This document shows positions 1 to 8,274 of a DNA stretch of 8,274 bases, in pieces. This stretch comes from a virus. Position numbers and translations under genes: made by a program. Positions within the stretch are counted from its first letter, which is position 1. Each line of letters begins with the position of its first letter. Where the stretch lies: UHGV virus genome UHGV-1341087; one strand, given 5' to 3'. The notes under the pieces are model-generated. The model made no database searches, had not been told where the DNA came from, and saw nothing but the letters and a program-made list of their open reading frames with translations.

Positions 1-53
1 GCACCGTCATGGGGTGTCGGGGGTCGGAGGTTCAAATCCTCTCGTGCCGACCA
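1..53 (+). tRNA. proL: tRNA-Pro (anticodon GGG likely), 3' partial; the 5' ~24 nt lie upstream of the window
   Basis: T-arm GGAGG-TTCAAAT-CCTCT, acceptor 3' strand CGTGCCG, discriminator A and CCA end at 51-53; a GGG triplet sits in the apparent anticodon loop (11-13). From memory this matches the enterobacterial proL sequence; not verified by search. Confidence 0.78.
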
Positions 54-88
54 AATCGCTCATTATTAATTATCGTTTTTATGAAATA

Positions 89-2119: not shown

Positions 2120-2413
2120 CTAATCGCACTTCCGTTTTAAACGGAAACGTACAATCGCATAGCTTAAACGACAAAAGAAATATGCTTGTTACAAATAAAA
2201 TAAAGGCGACCGCAGAGGGCCGCCAGAGGACATGTATTAAACTTGAACGCATCGCTAACAATGCCACATTTGCGGCTGGTGGGCAAAGTAATTTGTATGG
2301 TGGACATACCATCAACACATCCGACCACATGAGCCGGAAAACGGGATATACTCACCGAATCCCTTATAAAACGGGGATCGGGATTACCACCCCGCTGAAG
2401 CAAAAGGCGATAC

Positions 2414-2436
2414 AGACGCGCCACGCGTCTTTTTTT
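2414..2436 (+). terminator. Strong rho-independent terminator inside the alpA-to-replication-operon leader
   Basis: Perfect 7-bp GC-rich stem AGACGCG (2414-2420) / CGCGTCT (2424-2430), loop CCA, then a run of T (2431-2436). Confidence 0.6.
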
Positions 2437-2600
2437 GTATCGACGCACACGCACACCTTATCAATGGTGGGCTGTATGGGGCTGACTTCGGTCAGGCTGG
2501 TTTCCTTTTGCGCCAGTTGTGGTAACCCTGTACAGTCCACCGCCAGCGAGCTTACCACCTCCTGCGGTGGGTATATCCCAACGCAAAAGGAGGCTGCCAA

Positions 2601-3284: not shown

Positions 3285-5416
3285 AACGCGCACCGAACTT
3301 AAAGCACCAGCCAGCCGACAAAATGACGGAGGTTATCATTTTTGCGGGTAGTGATGCGTGGAGCCATGCGAAAGAGTGGCAGGAATGGGCAGGTAAGCAT
3401 ATTGCCGCCGACAATGTGCCGCCTGTCGTTCTGTCAGATGAACACCTGAAAGATATTACCGGTTATCAGATTATTGATGATAGCCGTCAGTGTGTGCGTG
3501 TTTACCGCGCAGGGCACATCACTGAACGTAGCCTTACACAGATCGTCACATTGCTGGCTGTGGCTGGCGTGAAGACCGTATACGAATATGCGGGAATAAC
3601 TGACACCAGCCCGGCGGATTTATCCGACCAGTTGCCTCGCCTCAAAGACGAATACGAGCGCGGGGAAAGTCTGGTGTTGCCCTTAAAGAAAAAAATCACA
3701 GAAAGCCAGGGCGATGATGAATTAAAACCCCGCGTTGAAAGTCGCGCCGATGGTGTTTTCTGGGTAACGCCCAAAGTTGACAAACAGTCAGGCGAAATTA
3801 TCCGGCCTGAGACGTGGTTATGTTCCCCGCTTGAACTACTGGGAACGGGAACAATCGGTAAAGAGCATTACCGCGTGATGCGCTGGAAAAAACCGGCAAA
3901 CCATGAATCCATCACAATGGCGATCCCGTGTGGTGGCATTGGCGACCGTGACGGCTGGCGGTTGCTTAAAGATCACGGCCTGAACGTGACAACAAACGGC
4001 AAATACAGGGCTATCCTGGCTGACTGGATGCAGTTAAGCGGAAACCATGAGGAATGGCAGTTAAGCACAACAACGGGGTGGCATTTTGGCGCGTACATCA
4101 TGCCGGACGGTTCAGTCATTGGTGAGTCTGAAAAACCGATCCTGTTTACCGGAAAAACGGCAGCCGTTAATGGTTATTCCGTAGCAGGAACGGCGGAGGG
4201 CTGGCGCGATACCGTGGCGCGACTGGCTGGTGGTAATCCGTCCATGATGCTGGGTGTGGCGGTATCGTTATCAGCACCATTAATCGGGCTGGTGGGCGCT
4301 GACGGCTTCGGGGTACATCTTTTCGAACAATCATCAGCAGGGAAAACCACCACACAGAACATAGCATCAAGTTTATGGGGAGAGCCGGACGCGCAACGGC
4401 TGACCTGGTACGGAACGGCGTTAGGTATCGCCAACGAGGCAGAGGCACACAACGACGGGCTGTTACCCCTAGATGAAATAGGCCAAGCCGGAAACGCACG
4501 GGAGGTGTCCACGTCGGCTTATACGCTGTTTAACGGTTCGGGGAAATTACAGGGGGCGAAGGACGGCGGCAACAGGGAGATCAAACACTGGCGCACGGTG
4601 GCAATCAGCACCGGAGAAATGGACGTTGAGACATTCCTCAAAACGGAGGGGATAAAAGTCAAAGCGGGGCAGCTTGTCCGCCTGCTTAACGTGCCGATGG
4701 AGAAGTCTACGCAGTATCACGAATACAGCACAGGAAAGGCGCACGCAGACGCGTTAAAAGCCGCCTGGACAGAAAACCACGGGGCGGCGGGTCGTGAATG
4801 GGTTAAATGGCTGGCAGCCCACCAGCAGGAGGCTAAGGACACGGTAAGGGCGTGTCGTGAACGGTGGCGCAACCTGATACCGGAGTGCTACGGCGAACAG
4901 GTTCATCGCGTGGGGGAACGATTCGCCATACTGGAGGCCGCGCTTGTGCTGTCCGGTCATGTTACGGGCTGGAATGTTCAGACGTGCCGTGATGCCATTC
5001 AGCATAACTTTAATGCCTGGGTGAAGGAGTTCGGCACGGGTAACAAGGAACACAGGCAGATTATTGAACAGGCAGAAGCATTTCTTACTGCCTACGGCAT
5101 GAGCAGGTTTGCGCCTGTCAATTATGACCCTGCAAGCCTGCCGATTTCAGAACTGTACGGCTACAGGGAAAGCGAGGGGCGTTACGGTGAGCCTGTTTTG
5201 TTTTACGTCCTGCCGGAGCCATTTAAATCGCATGTGGCGAAGGGATTTAACAAGGATGCCGTAGCAAGAGCCCTTCACGAAGCCGGAATGCTGAAAAAGC
5301 CAGCCAGCGGGGAAGGATGGCAAATCAGAACACCACGTCTTAAGCACATGAAGGGGGCACGACTAAGGGTGTACGGCCTTTTACTTGCACAGGATCATGA
5401 TGATGAAGGTGGTTAA
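3281..5416 (+). CDS. Replication protein, primase/helicase-like P-loop NTPase (toprim-like N-terminus plus DUF927-type P-loop domain; functional analogue of P4 alpha)
   Basis: 711-aa ORF. Walker A GADGFGVHLFEQSSAGKTTT (about nt 4325-4354) and Walker B-like LLPLDEIG (about 4459-4482); N-terminal EVIIFAGSDAW...IIDDSRQ resembles a degenerate toprim fold. Domain names are from recall, not from a search. Confidence 0.88.
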   Translation: MKRAPNLKHQPADKMTEVIIFAGSDAWSHAKEWQEWAGKHIAADNVPPVVLSDEHLKDITGYQIIDDSRQCVRVYRAGHITERSLTQIVTLLAVAGVKTVYEYAGITDTSPADLSDQLPRLKDEYERGESLVLPLKKKITESQGDDELKPRVESRADGVFWVTPKVDKQSGEIIRPETWLCSPLELLGTGTIGKEHYRVMRWKKPANHESITMAIPCGGIGDRDGWRLLKDHGLNVTTNGKYRAILADWMQLSGNHEEWQLSTTTGWHFGAYIMPDGSVIGESEKPILFTGKTAAVNGYSVAGTAEGWRDTVARLAGGNPSMMLGVAVSLSAPLIGLVGADGFGVHLFEQSSAGKTTTQNIASSLWGEPDAQRLTWYGTALGIANEAEAHNDGLLPLDEIGQAGNAREVSTSAYTLFNGSGKLQGAKDGGNREIKHWRTVAISTGEMDVETFLKTEGIKVKAGQLVRLLNVPMEKSTQYHEYSTGKAHADALKAAWTENHGAAGREWVKWLAAHQQEAKDTVRACRERWRNLIPECYGEQVHRVGERFAILEAALVLSGHVTGWNVQTCRDAIQHNFNAWVKEFGTGNKEHRQIIEQAEAFLTAYGMSRFAPVNYDPASLPISELYGYRESEGRYGEPVLFYVLPEPFKSHVAKGFNKDAVARALHEAGMLKKPASGEGWQIRTPRLKHMKGARLRVYGLLLAQDHDDEGG

Positions 5417-5441: not shown

Positions 5442-5577
5442 CTTGTCCCACCTGTCCCAACCTGTGAAAAACACACATAACACACTGAATTATACTGGGT
5501 TACATCAGAAAAAGTGGGACAAGAGCGGGACAAGTTAAGGTGATTTTGGGACAAGTTAGGAGCATTTTGGGACAAGT
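5442..5577. repeat. Iteron-like array A: six copies of a TTGTCCCA(C) motif (2 direct, 4 inverted) around an AT-rich spacer
   Basis: cttgtcccac (5442-5451), ctgtcccaac (5452-5461); inverted gtgggacaag (5514-5523), cgggacaagt (5526-5535), tgggacaagt (5547-5556 and 5568-5577, 21 bp apart). Lies in the 235-bp gap between the primase and ssb genes. Confidence 0.6.
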
Positions 5578-6112: not shown

Positions 6113-6649
6113 ATGACTACACTGACTATTAGCAGAAAACCGAAAGGCATTTACGGCATACCACAGAAAAAGACACAGACGACACAGCAGCAGGATAAAA
6201 CCACATCAGCGCATAAAGTGATACCCGGCAATCAGAACGCACCGCAGAGCCGCAAACAGAAGCCCACAGGGGCGACACCGTGGCGGCATATGACCAAACG
6301 CCAGGGCAAAAACCGCAGGCGCGTTAACCGTCTTATTGAACTATGGCCTGAATTATTCAGCCTGGAATCACCGAAGCCGCTTAAGGTAGGGATATTTGAA
6401 GACCTGATACAGGATATTGCCGTCAGGGCGCTGGCTTTTGGGTCAGGGGCATTACGTGCGGCGCTAGCATCTTATGCTCATTCTCCGGGTTATTACCGTG
6501 CCTTAATGGCTGGTGGCGTGCGTTACGATCTGAATTGCCAGCCATGCGGTGAGGTGACACAACAGGAACAGCAGGACGCGGAAGCACGACTGATGGCACT
6601 GAAAGAGAAGCGCAAACGTAAGTCGAACAAGGAACAAGCTGGCGTATGA
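6113..6649 (+). CDS. FinO/ProQ-domain RNA chaperone-like protein
   Basis: 178-aa ORF with a K/R/Q-rich N-terminal extension followed by RVNRLIELWPELFSLESPKPLKVGIFEDL...YRALMAGGVRYDLNCQPCGEVTQQE, closely resembling the ProQ/FinO domain (compare ProQ ...KPLKIGIFQDL... RVDLDGNPCGEL...). Confidence 0.85.
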   Translation: MTTLTISRKPKGIYGIPQKKTQTTQQQDKTTSAHKVIPGNQNAPQSRKQKPTGATPWRHMTKRQGKNRRRVNRLIELWPELFSLESPKPLKVGIFEDLIQDIAVRALAFGSGALRAALASYAHSPGYYRALMAGGVRYDLNCQPCGEVTQQEQQDAEARLMALKEKRKRKSNKEQAGV

Positions 6650-6930
6650 GTATGATTCACGACAGTAAAGCGGAAGATCTGGAGGCTAAAGGCCTGTACC
6701 GGAGAGCGGCGACCCGATGGGCTGAGATCATGCAACAGGTGAACACCGATAAGGAGCGCGAACAGGCAGTAAAGCGTCGCGCGGAATGTATCCACAAGGC
6801 AGCACGTTCGCCCGTCATGCTGGATAATTTCGGGGGCTTGAGAGAGGCAGCAAACCGCACACAGGCGGATATGGGGATAGAAATCGCAAAATCTGTCTGG
6901 CGGAACTACCAGACAGACAAAGTTTTATAG
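6646..6930 (+). CDS. PerC-family-like small transcriptional regulator (tentative)
   Basis: 94-aa ORF whose start overlaps the finO-like stop (ATGA). The motif AEDLEAKGLYRRAATRWAEIM recalls PerC/Pch-type activators common in enterobacterial prophages; family assignment from memory only. Confidence 0.6.
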   Translation: MSMIHDSKAEDLEAKGLYRRAATRWAEIMQQVNTDKEREQAVKRRAECIHKAARSPVMLDNFGGLREAANRTQADMGIEIAKSVWRNYQTDKVL

Positions 6931-6994
6931 TGGCAGTTCTGCATTATTTTTGTGTTATTGAGTTGTAGAGCGTTTCAGGAGTTTTTTGAATCAC

Positions 6995-7195
6995 ATGAAC
7001 GTTTCGCTGGTGGATATTCTTGACAAGTTGCAGCCAGGCCGACGCGTGCCAGCTCGCCGCAGTGCCTGGCATCTTCCGTACATCGTCTTTCTCGAACGGC
7101 GCGGAAACGATTTGATTGCGTTGAATCCCGTCACAGAGGATAGCGTTACGCTATCTCCTGAGAGTCTACTAGCCACAGACTGGGAGTACTGCTAA
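6995..7195 (+). CDS. Hypothetical small protein
   Basis: 66 aa from the ATG at 6995 (CAGGAG 13-18 nt upstream); the ORF track starts at a TTG at 6986. No recognised family. Confidence 0.45.
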   Translation: MNVSLVDILDKLQPGRRVPARRSAWHLPYIVFLERRGNDLIALNPVTEDSVTLSPESLLATDWEYC

Positions 7196-7241
7196 ACACA
7201 AACGCATCGAGGGTGCTGGCGTGTTGCCAGCCCCACCCCCT

Positions 7242-7463
7242 CCGAAATGATCCCCCAAAAAGTGCAAAATGATCCCCCATTAACGAACAGAAAACAAACA
7301 AAGAGCAACAAATAAGCATTATTTACAATTCTTGACAAAAACACCCCCTATTTATAACCCTACCAAATTTAAAATTACATATACAAAACAATAAGTTACA
7401 AAATCAGCAACGGATCATTTCGGAAAAAACGGTTAGTCCCTTTTTCGAAAAGGGATCATTTTG
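7242..7463. repeat. Four GATC-containing 13-mer repeats (2 direct, 2 inverted) flanking a ~130-bp AT-rich tract; candidate origin/unwinding element or methylation-sensitive control region
   Basis: aaatgatccccca exact at 7245-7257 and 7267-7279; inverted partners cggatcatttcgg (7411-7423) and gggatcattttg (7452-7463); GATC at 7249, 7271, 7413 and 7454; near-palindrome tccctttttcgaaaaggga (7437-7455). Confidence 0.5.
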
Positions 7464-7727
7464 TTGCTTAAACTCATATGCGGATTACATATCAATACGC
7501 TAGTGATAGCCGTTCTGGAATGCCACAGAAACGCGCTGTAATCGATTCTGGCGCAATTAGCTGTGCTAGGTAATGATTTACCTATCTGGGGATGTTGCGC
7601 ACGTCTGGATTGCGTTACCACCGAAGATTGTGCGCGTATGGTGGCTGTTACGGTGGCCTCCCGACAACGCAAAATTGCGGCGGCACAGTCGGTTTACCGC
7701 GCTAACACGGCTTGATTCACTCGCTCG

Positions 7728-7853
7728 ACTTGTCCCACCTCCCCCCAACTTGTCCCAAAACAGCCTAGACTTGTCCCACCTTACCTAATTTATTTCTAAC
7801 AAAATCAATTTGTTAGGTGCTAGCGGGACAGGTGGGACGGGTGGGACGGGTGG
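7728..7853. repeat. Iteron-like array B: three direct ACTTGTCCCA copies at ~21-bp spacing, AT-rich spacer, then three inverted GGGAC(A/G)GGT copies at 9-bp periodicity
   Basis: acttgtccca at 7728-7737, 7748-7757 and 7769-7778; gggacaggt / gggacgggt / gggacgggt within 7825-7851. Same core motif and same direct-then-inverted polarity as array A. Confidence 0.6.
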
Positions 7854-8126
7854 TTTTGTATATATATACGAAAAATTGCATTCAGGAGGGGGGCGAAATT
7901 CCTGCAATCCATTACTTATGGAACTGTCCGCCCCGTCAAATTTTTACGCCCGCGCAATTAAAAAAATGCGTCACGCAGGTGGGCATGATGCCGATATGCT
8001 TGTCGGGTTCAGCTTTTTAAGGCGGCTGTAGATGTCAGGTTATCCGTGCTCATCCACCAGCCAGCTTCATAGCGGATAGCCGGAAAATGGTAACGGTTAA
8101 AGCTGTACATTTTTGCAGCAAATCAT

Positions 8127-8150
8127 TTTAGTTATACGTTTAGATATACG
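8127..8150. repeat. Second tandem pair of the TTTAGTTATACG 12-mer (candidate integrase arm-type sites near the distal end)
   Basis: tttagttatacg (8127-8138) and tttagatatacg (8139-8150); 22 of 24 positions identical to 174-197. Confidence 0.4.
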
Positions 8151-8226
8151 ATTTCAAAACTCAATCAATCTACATCTTTAAAATCATGCAGTTACAGAAT
8201 CAATTAAACTACTCTCGTGGAAAAAA

Positions 8227-8250
8227 CCAACCCTTACGGTTGGTTTTTTT
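8227..8250. terminator. Rho-independent terminator, possibly bidirectional
   Basis: A-run (8221-8226), stem CCAACC (8227-8232) / GGTTGG (8238-8243), loop CTTAC, then a T-run (8244-8250). Confidence 0.5.
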
Positions 8251-8274
8251 ATATCTGCAATTAATTCGATAAAC

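What the first reader, a model, noticed from the sequence alone, without database searches (positions are those of the whole stretch)
7242..7463. GATC-bearing 13-mer repeated four times around an AT-rich tract
AAATGATCCCCCA occurs twice as an exact direct repeat 22 bp apart (7245-7257, 7267-7279), and each copy's extended form has an inverted partner about 170-190 bp downstream (7411-7423, 7452-7463). Every copy carries a Dam site (GATC), and the copies flank a ~130-bp AT-rich stretch. A near-palindrome TCCCTTTTTCGAAAAGGGA (7437-7455) lies between the inverted copies. This looks like a DNA-unwinding-element / initiator-site arrangement or a methylation-gated switch, and is distinct from the TTGTCCCA iterons 300 bp further on.
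Basis: seen in the sequence. Interest (0 to 1): 0.6.

Follow-up and report, generated by a model that had tools for sequence, protein, structure and literature searches.

The report
Orphan four-site GATC array in satellite
Four copies of a short GATC-containing DNA word sit as two facing pairs around an easily melted AT-rich stretch in the non-coding tail of a small E. coli phage satellite; the layout resembles a satellite replication origin or an operator set, but the protein that reads it is unknown and the array occurs in only one narrow lineage.

Summary
AAATGATCC occurs exactly four times in the window, at 7245 and 7267 (+) and 7412 and 7453 (-). No 9-mer reached four copies within 250 bp in 1000 simulated sequences. 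The copies form two perfect inverted pairs, 13 nt and 12 nt long. They flank 132 bp of 27% GC that includes the joint least stable duplex of the window.

The window is an ~8 kb PICI/P4-like satellite at tRNA-Pro (proL). It encodes Int, AlpA, C4 RNA, a DUF927 primase, SSB, ProQ and PerC, and carries a phiP27-like cos.

The layout follows the PICI origin plan: repeat sets in opposite orientation, about 21-bp phasing, and an AT-rich centre. The island's own TTGTCCCA arrays follow this plan twice. The repeat word here is different, and no cognate binder was found in the island, in phiP27-type initiators, or in IMG/VR and GTDB scans.

A promoter-like element lies in the centre, with invariant hexamers and a hypervariable spacer. 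That keeps an operator-loop reading alive.

Within Escherichia the sites are no better conserved than their flanks, and site 2 is broken in 2 of 9 copies. There is no evidence of inversion, no RNA covariation and no multicopy spread.

Verdict: a real orphan protein-binding array, most likely origin-like, with function unproven. Interest is moderate to low.

The parts
7241..7253 (+). Site A-left, TCCGAAATGATCC (core AAATGATCC 7245-7253; GATC 7249-7252)
   Evidence: (I3). The 9-mer core is invariant in 9 natural copies; MIN9 has a C->T change in the TCCG flank (L137).
7265..7276 (+). Site B-left, CAAAATGATCCC (core 7267-7275; GATC 7271-7274), 22 bp after site A-left
   Evidence: (I6, D8). The GATC is destroyed in strains ET210 (1-nt deletion) and NCCP13717 (A->C).
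7280..7411 (.). AT-rich centre, 132 bp at 27% GC. Segment 7347-7406 is the joint least stable 60-bp duplex of the window. It is also C-rich and G-poor on the + strand.
   Evidence: Segment 7300-7349 is the most variable 50-bp bin of the array region, and only 7800-7849 is more variable in the whole alignment (12 of 50 columns).
7291..7303 (+). (AAAC)n tract whose copy number varies among strains. This changes the left-to-right set distance by 4-8 bp.
   Evidence: Alignment A1
7332..7358 (+). Promoter-like element TTGACA-15 nt-TATAAC. The hexamer blocks are invariant and the 5-nt spacer segment 7341-7346 is hypervariable.
   Evidence: plus L137. The consensus promoter scan does not call it because of the 15-nt spacer.
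7412..7424 (-). Site A-right, reverse complement TCCGAAATGATCC (GATC 7413-7416)
   Evidence: (I3). One strain (AL.H8) has GGATCATTG.
7436..7456 (+). Near-palindrome GTCCCTTTTTCGAAAAGGGAT followed by a T-rich tail (terminator-like). It overlaps site B-right.
   Evidence: The stem changes in natural copies do not preserve pairing (TGCC..., TCAC...).
7452..7463 (-). Site B-right, reverse complement CAAAATGATCCC (GATC 7454-7457), 41 bp after site A-right
   Evidence: (I6). Invariant in 9 copies.
7211..7234 (+). GC-rich hairpin just after the last ORF of the operon and immediately upstream of site A-left. It has no T tail.
   Evidence: Direct reading; it forms in the MFE fold.
5442..5577 (.). Comparator: Rep-adjacent TTGTCCCA iteron array. 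Two + copies, a 52-bp AT-rich centre, and four - copies in ~21-bp phasing.
7728..7852 (.). Comparator: cos-adjacent TTGTCCCA iteron array. Three + copies at 20/21 bp, a 46-bp AT-rich centre with an IHF consensus at 7803-7815, and three - copies.

Best explanation
The four sites are recognition sites for one sequence-specific DNA-binding protein. The core is 5'-C-R-AAATGATCC-3'. They are laid out on the plan used by replication origins of PICI-type satellites: two repeat sets in opposite orientation, phased in multiples of about 21 bp (22 and 41 bp), around an AT-rich tract that melts easily.

The repeat word differs from the iterons of the island's own primase-helicase (TTGTCCCA, present in two arrays elsewhere). 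The array is therefore an orphan, non-cognate origin-like module. Its binder must come in trans, from a helper phage, another satellite or the host.

The inferred mechanism has three steps. The protein occupies both arms. This bends or pairs the arms. The 132-bp centre is thereby destabilised, or access to it is controlled. Every site has GATC at its centre, so Dam methylation state would be read by whatever binds.

Shown here: the sites, their non-randomness, their geometry, the low duplex stability of the centre, and the non-identity with the island's iterons. Inferred: protein binding, origin function and any methylation effect.
For: 1. Four perfect 9-mers and two perfect 12-13-nt inverted pairs show no flanking similarity, and 0 of 1000 simulations reach this. 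That pattern fits binding sites rather than a segmental duplication.
2. The plan is the same as the island's TTGTCCCA arrays (5442-5577 and 7728-7852) and the arrays of related satellites L158, L003 and L004. [quoted passage not shown]
3. Site spacing of 22 and 41 bp compares with 20-22 bp in those arrays.
4. The centre contains the joint least stable duplex of the window.
5. PICI tails can carry arrays that are not cognate to their Rep. The GCGGGTTA array next to cos occurs in L158 (CTGTCTACC-type Rep) and in the STEC383 island (TTGTCCCA-type Rep).
6. Arrays of the same GATC-containing word occur as iterons inside O-like replication-initiator genes of uncultivated phages: L080, L034, L128, L142, L164, L173 and L162. 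Such a word is therefore a credible initiator site.
Against: - The array is not next to a rep gene. It lies 1.8 kb downstream, past four genes.
- There are only 2+2 copies, and the centre is two to three times longer than in proven arrays.
- No cognate initiator was found. It is not encoded in the island. The ATGATCC pair in the phiP27 initiator gene is a variable coding repeat across 80 related loci. No enterobacterial hit appeared in the IMG/VR or GTDB pattern scans apart from the same satellite in E. albertii.
- Related satellites with the same ProQ/PerC module lack it.
- The sites are no more conserved than their flanks, and site 2 has lost its GATC in 2 of 9 copies.
- The (AAAC)n length variation changes the phasing between the arms.
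Confidence: 0.3

Rival explanations
1. Operator loop around a promoter. A repressor or activator binds the upstream pair (about -120 and -98) and the downstream pair (about +47 and +88) of a rightward promoter (TTGACA 7332, TATAAC 7353). Looping then controls a transcript running toward the highly conserved 7470-7720 region and the cos-adjacent origin.
For: - TTGACA and the TATTTATAACCC block are invariant in 9 copies, while the 5 nt between them are hypervariable at fixed length (L137).
- A terminator-like hairpin lies downstream.
- Region 7500-7650 downstream is nearly invariant.
- The converging sites span 171-187 bp, a typical loop size.
Against: - The spacer is 15 nt and the consensus scan does not call the promoter.
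- The hairpin changes are non-compensatory.
- There is no credible ORF with a ribosome-binding site downstream and no Rfam family there.
- The downstream RNA folds no better than shuffles.
- No regulator was identified.
Confidence: 0.25
2. Dam-methylation-gated epigenetic switch of the pap, agn43 or opvAB type. A regulator and Dam compete at the four GATCs, giving heritable ON and OFF states.
For: There are four GATCs in two pairs, each inside a repeated putative binding site, around a promoter-like element.
Against: - The flanks do not resemble OxyR (ATAG-N7-CTAT) or Lrp/PapI (ACGATC) sites, by direct reading.
- One GATC is lost in 2 of 9 copies.
- No regulated gene is evident.
- The methylation state is unknown.
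Confidence: 0.08
3. Host initiator or sequestration site. The TGATCC core mimics the GATC-containing low-affinity DnaA sites of oriC. Alternatively, the 22-bp GATC pair binds SeqA when hemimethylated.
For: - oriC contains TGATCC or GGGATCA at three places, plus GGATCATT and AATGATC.
- Two 8/9 DnaA-box matches lie in the array, at 7261-7269 and 7319-7327.
Against: - What the four sites conserve is the 5' AAA and not positions 7-9 of a DnaA 9-mer.
- DnaA-box-like matches are below chance in the window overall (9 against 16.7).
- There is no high-affinity anchor box.
- The right-hand pair is 41 bp apart, beyond the usual SeqA pairing range (established knowledge, from memory).
Confidence: 0.07
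4. Functionless relic in a decaying island. The repeats arose by local events, or came in with a captured module, and are drifting neutrally.
For: - The island is confined to Escherichia, at one locus.
- Many genomes hold deletion derivatives, and one has an IS66 insertion beside the array.
- attR lacks 17 bp of the tRNA copy.
- The sites are no better conserved than their flanks.
Against: Two perfect 12-13-nt inverted pairs without any flanking similarity are hard to get by duplication or by chance. All four 9-mer cores are intact in 6 of 9 diverged copies.
Confidence: 0.15
5. RNA element or invertible/mobile DNA. Three variants were considered: the inverted arms pair in a transcript (sRNA or attenuator); they are recombination sites of an invertible promoter; or they are the ends of a MITE.
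For: - The 13- and 12-nt perfect inverted repeats give RNA fold z-scores of -3.6 (+ strand) and -1.9 (- strand).
- The inverted repeats flank a promoter-like element.
Against: - The arms are interleaved, so both helices cannot nest.
- Natural changes break the pairs without compensation.
- All 68 of 68 genomes are colinear, so no inversion is seen.
- The array is single-copy per genome, with no target-site duplication.
- There is no nearby recombinase other than the P4-type Int.
Confidence: 0.05

Closest known systems
PICI/SaPI replication origins (iteron sets flanking an AT-rich melting region; Fillol-Salom et al. 2018, PMC6092414)
   Same: Two repeat sets in opposite orientation, about 21-bp phasing, an AT-rich and easily melted centre, and a location in a PICI-type island.
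   Different: The repeat word is not that of the island's Rep. The array is not adjacent to a rep gene. It has only 2+2 copies, a centre two to three times longer, and GATC in every copy.
P4 ori/crr (alpha-protein iterons, TGTTCACC; from memory)
   Same: The island itself follows the P4 plan: an alpha-like primase with two separated arrays of TGTnnnCC-type iterons (TTGTCCCA). A relative, L004, uses CTGTTCACC.
   Different: The GATC array is a third array with a different word. TGATCCCC matches TGTTCACC at only 6 of 8 positions, and the right-hand copies lack the terminal CC.
Non-cognate GCGGGTTA array next to cos in EcCICFT073-like satellites (L158 and the STEC383 island)
   Same: It is an iteron-like array in a PICI tail whose word differs from the Rep-adjacent iterons. 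It has the same 3+3 opposed layout with 21-22-bp phasing.
   Different: It directly abuts cos and is shared by satellites with different Reps. The present array lies 265 bp upstream of the cos-adjacent array and is lineage-specific.
Iterons inside phage O-like replication-initiator genes (lambda O type); uncultivated phages L080, L164, L173, L162
   Same: They share the GATC-containing word (AAATGATCCC / GGGATCAAAATGATCCC), repeated 3-5 times at 20-30-bp spacing, next to an AT-rich stretch.
   Different: Those arrays are tandem, often dyad-symmetric, and embedded in the initiator gene. None of the hosts is enterobacterial. Here there are half-sites only, and no initiator gene.
Dam-controlled origins (oriC 13-mers, P1 oriR GATC heptamers) and Dam phase-variation switches (pap, agn43, opvAB)
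   Same: Clustered GATCs sit in or next to an AT-rich regulatory or unwinding region.
   Different: The motifs differ (GATCTnTTnTTTT; GGATCTA). There is no DnaA box and no OxyR or Lrp context, and the sites flank the AT tract rather than fill it.

Membership tests
PICI/SaPI-type replication origin | Two sets of short repeats in opposite orientation flanking an AT-rich region | tested here: met
   Two + and two - copies around 132 bp of 27% GC; definition from PMC6092414.
PICI/SaPI-type replication origin | Located immediately 3' of the replication initiator gene | tested here: not met
   The primase ends at 5416 and the array starts at 7241, with SSB, ProQ, PerC and a 66-aa ORF in between.
PICI/SaPI-type replication origin | Repeats are the iterons recognised by the island's own Rep | tested here: not met
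   The Rep-adjacent and cos-adjacent arrays use TTGTCCCA, as does the L002 island with the same DUF927 Rep. AAATGATCC is absent from those arrays.
PICI/SaPI-type replication origin | Supports initiator-dependent autonomous replication | not testable with these tools
   Requires a plasmid maintenance assay.
oriC / P1 oriR type Dam-controlled unwinding element | Tandem GATC-initiated AT-rich repeats inside the unwinding region, next to DnaA boxes | tested here: not met
   The sites flank the AT tract. The word is GATCATTTYG, against oriC GATCTnTTnTTTT and P1 GGATCTA. There is no perfect DnaA box in the array.
oriC / P1 oriR type Dam-controlled unwinding element | Function depends on GATC methylation or SeqA | not testable with these tools
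   Requires a dam/seqA genetic test or methylation calling.
Lambda-type origin (O-like initiator) | Four or more tandem, dyad-symmetric iterons inside the initiator gene | tested here: not met
   There are only half-sites, no partner GATC 10 bp away, no O-like ORF on either strand and no initiator Pfam hit.
Dam phase-variation switch (pap, agn43, opvAB) | GATCs embedded in Lrp/PapI or OxyR binding sites upstream of a regulated operon | tested here: not met
   No ACGATC, and no ATAG/CTAT tetrads at the GATCs (reading). No credible downstream gene.
Dam phase-variation switch (pap, agn43, opvAB) | Alternative heritable methylation patterns | not testable with these tools
   Needs long-read methylation data.
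Invertible promoter (inverton) | Both orientations occur in natural populations; a dedicated recombinase is nearby | tested here: not met
   All 68 of 68 complete genomes are colinear in one BLAST piece. The only recombinase is the tRNA-targeting Int at 260-1504.
MITE / IS remnant | Multiple dispersed copies and a target-site duplication | tested here: not met
   69 places in 68 genomes, no plasmid or phage copies, and no duplication at either pair of ends.

The most novel reading that the evidence does not exclude
The array is a second origin of foreign specificity. An initiator not encoded by the island (from a helper phage or a co-resident satellite) fires it, or is titrated by it, with binding gated by Dam methylation of the central GATC. 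A minimal satellite without packaging genes would then couple its replication, or its interference with the helper, to another element's replication protein.
Probability: 0.12. Interest if true: 0.65.

Novelty: new variant of a known kind. Interest (0 to 1): 0.33.

Why it matters
If the array binds an initiator supplied in trans, it would show that PICI-type satellites carry origin modules of mixed specificity. Together with the non-cognate GCGGGTTA arrays seen next to cos in related islands, this would point to cross-talk between satellites, or between satellite and helper, at the level of replication. That would be a layer of molecular piracy not yet described for Gram-negative PICIs.

If instead it is an operator set or a drifting relic, it is an ordinary lineage-specific cis element in a small, partly decayed island.

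Tried and rejected
1. Helper initiator via phiP27. The cos-like site points to phiP27-type helpers. The phiP27 initiator gene L17 has two AAAACATGATCCGCAAG repeats. Across 80 related initiator loci this pair varies as a coding repeat (KHDPQ/KHEPP) and the true iterons are TGACCCTTCAGAATCTG. Rejected.

2. Pattern scans for the repeat pair in IMG/VR and GTDB genomes. The only homologous hit was the same satellite in E. albertii. The other hits were unrelated phage or actinobacterial iteron arrays, coding repeats and tandem arrays. They are useful as an analogy, not as a cognate partner.

3. tblastn of the L080 initiator against GenBank phages: no match.

4. Homology of the region. Nothing appeared in phages or plasmids except cos. 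There was no tblastx or blastn similarity of 7196-7700 to four related satellites.

5. The 66-aa ORF next to the array as a candidate binder. It is Escherichia-only, has no Pfam hit and matches PHROG 7206 of unknown function. The AlphaFold model is a small beta-barrel with pLDDT 71 and no significant PDB match. No support.

6. RNA readings. The fold z-scores only reflect the repeats. There is no covariation and no Rfam hit.

7. Inverton, MITE, DnaA array, IHF site, Tus/Ter and CRP/FNR/Fur look-alikes were considered by reading or by pattern and not supported.

8. A literature search for the word returned only primers. A search for the P1 oriR heptamers found nothing in the library, so the P1 record itself was read.

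Full report
**Observation**

Reading 6600-8274 and running the repeat finder confirm the finding. AAATGATCCCCCA lies at 7245-7257 and 7267-7279. Two perfect inverted pairs exist: TCCGAAATGATCC at 7241-7253 with 7412-7424 (13 nt), and CAAAATGATCCC at 7265-7276 with 7452-7463 (12 nt).

The shared core AAATGATCC occurs exactly four times in the 8274-bp window, all here. No weaker copy lies between them. In 1000 first-order Markov simulations no 9-mer reached four copies within 250 bp.

The flanks beyond 12-13 nt are unrelated, so this is not a segmental duplication. The sites fall into two types, A (TCCG-) and B (CA-), one of each per side. They are interleaved in the order A, B ... A', B'.

The GATCs are at 7249, 7271, 7413 and 7454. 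The spacings of 22 and 41 bp are about two and four helical turns. GATC is not enriched in the window as a whole. The tract between the pairs is 132 bp at 27% GC and holds the joint least stable 60-bp duplex of the window.

**Context**

The window is an ~8 kb satellite integrated at tRNA-Pro (proL), between yejM and yejO in E. coli (empty site in K-12).

- Genes: Int; an AlpA-like regulator; a P1/P4-type C4 antisense RNA with isrK; DUF4222; a DUF927 primase-helicase; SSB; ProQ/FinO; PerC; and a 66-aa ORF.
- The ~1 kb non-coding tail then carries the GATC array and a nearly invariant stretch (7500-7650).
- Next comes a TTGTCCCA iteron array (7728-7852) with an IHF consensus.
- It ends with a cos-like site 79.5% identical to the annotated cos of phage phiP27 and the integrase arm repeats.
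- A second TTGTCCCA array lies directly 3' of the primase gene (5442-5577).

Related E. coli satellites share the replication and regulatory module but carry terS, capsid or DUF1441 genes. This places the island among the Gram-negative PICIs.

**Comparison of arrays**

In these satellites the Rep-adjacent iterons track the Rep type:

- TTGTCCCA in the window and in L002 (DUF927 Rep).
- CTGTCTACC in L003 and L158.
- CTGTTCACC in L004, which equals the P4 type I iteron as I recall it.

All have two opposed repeat sets around an AT-rich centre, with one set phased at 20-22 bp. The literature gives exactly this as the hallmark of PICI origins (PMC6092414). The GATC array follows the plan with a different word.

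PICI tails can hold arrays that are not cognate to their Rep. A GCGGGTTA array abuts cos in L158 and also in the STEC383 island, whose Reps differ. An orphan origin-like module is therefore not without precedent in this family.

**Search for a reader of the word**

Pattern scans of IMG/VR and GTDB genomes found the word repeated in many places. Several hits lie inside O-like replication-initiator genes of uncultivated phages, confirmed by Pfam HTH_36 and by PHROG 'replication initiation O-like'. One contig, L177, even repeats TTCCGAAATGATCC, which is identical to site A over 13 nt. None of these is enterobacterial, and the only homologous hit is the same satellite in E. albertii.

The phiP27 initiator gene has a pair of ATGATCC-containing repeats. 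Eighty related loci show this to be a variable coding repeat, not an iteron. No binder was identified.

The adjacent 66-aa ORF is Escherichia-only. It models as a small beta-barrel with no informative match.

**Conservation**

The region occurs once per genome in 68 of 5426 complete E. coli genomes, at 93-100% identity and always colinear. Many other genomes keep only deletion remnants of the island.

In nine copies, the cores of sites A-left and B-right are invariant (MIN9 changes a flank base of A-left). A-right has one change, and B-left has lost its GATC twice. Overall the sites vary about as much as their flanks. The AT-rich centre is the most variable part of the array region and includes (AAAC)n length changes.

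The near-palindrome changes without compensation, so a hairpin is not selected. The same holds for the long-range arms, so RNA pairing is not supported.

Inside the centre, TTGACA and a TATAAC-containing block are invariant while the 5 nt between them are hypervariable at constant length. That is a promoter-like signature. However, the spacer is only 15 nt and the scan tool does not call it.

**Interpretation**

The array is a real, non-random set of binding-site-like repeats.

The best-supported reading is an orphan origin-like (iteron/AT-rich) module whose binder acts in trans (confidence about 0.3). Close behind is an operator loop around the internal promoter-like element (0.25).

A Dam-gated switch (0.08) and DnaA/SeqA binding (0.07) remain possible but lack specific support. 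oriC does contain TGATCC-type sites, but the positions conserved here do not fit a DnaA 9-mer, and DnaA-box matches are not enriched.

A drifting relic is a fair null (0.15), given the decayed att site and the lack of extra constraint. Inversion, MITE and RNA readings are disfavoured.

**Novelty and score**

The array is a variant of a known kind of element, not a new category. It is confined to one narrow lineage and has no demonstrated function, so interest is moderate to low. The point worth following is the recurrence of non-cognate iteron arrays in PICI tails.

Noticed in passing
window 2359-2547: Rfam matches above gathering score to isrK (2359-2435) and C4 antisense RNA (2460-2547). This is a P1/P4-type antisense immunity module between the AlpA-like gene and the primase operon; the neighbouring ORFs are annotated Ash and Icd-like in RefSeq.
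   Followed up: no
window 7853-7998 (core 7885-7964): A cos-like site 79.5% identical to the annotated cos of Stx2e phage phiP27. It is 94% identical to the tail of an EcCICFT073-like satellite (L158). The island has no terS, rpp (DUF1441) or capsid genes, so it would depend wholly on a helper for packaging.
   Followed up: partly
window 5442-5577 and 7728-7852: Two separate TTGTCCCA iteron arrays 2.2 kb apart, one 3' of the primase and one next to cos, reminiscent of P4 ori and crr. The second has an exact IHF consensus at 7803-7815.
   Followed up: partly
L158 19845-19997; STEC383 chromosome 3279612-3279807 (H132): An iteron-like array (TTGCGGGTTA x3, AT-rich centre, TAACCCGC x3) abuts cos in satellites whose Rep-adjacent iterons differ (CTGTCTACC or TTGTCCCA). 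It is not Rep-cognate and its function is unknown. It matches in 300 of 5426 E. coli genomes.
   Followed up: partly
window 7500-7650: A non-coding stretch with 0-3 variable columns per 50 bp across 9 copies, less variable than the neighbouring genes. It has no convincing ORF, no Rfam hit, and an RNA fold no better than shuffles on the + strand.
   Followed up: partly
window 6995-7195: A 66-aa ORF, mostly unannotated in RefSeq and found only in Escherichia (>=94% identity). It matches PHROG 7206 (unknown function). The AlphaFold model (pLDDT 71) is a small SH3/Tudor-like beta-barrel without a significant PDB match.
   Followed up: partly
window 1-60 and 8205-8274; L374 (K-12): attL regenerates tRNA-Pro. 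attR keeps only CTCTCGTG of the tRNA 3' end and lacks 17 bp present in the K-12 empty site (12 bp are missing in E. albertii). The 23-nt repeats TTAGTTATAYGTTTAGWTATACG at 175-197 and 8128-8150 look like integrase arm sites.
   Followed up: partly
L157 (ECCWS199) and L129 (NCCP13717): The island is decaying in place. One strain joins an int fragment directly to window position ~7505. Another has an IS66 insertion right after the array (~7475). About 150 genomes match only parts of the tail.
   Followed up: no
L004 3031-3320: A capsid-encoding relative uses CTGTTCACC iterons, the same word as the P4 alpha-protein type I iteron (from memory). This links these PICI Reps to the P4 alpha family.
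   Followed up: no
L050, L164, L165, L172; L080, L034, L128, L142: Uncultivated phages carry GATC-rich dyad iterons (GGGATCAAAATGATCCC; GGGGATCATTTTCGATCCCC) inside the linker of O-like initiator genes. GATC-centred iterons appear to be a recurrent design.
   Followed up: partly
window 3793-3810 and 6815-6832: An 18-nt inverted repeat (89%) within the primase and perC genes contains CGAAATTATCC, a near-copy of site A with GATC changed to TATC. It is about what chance allows in 8 kb.
   Followed up: no
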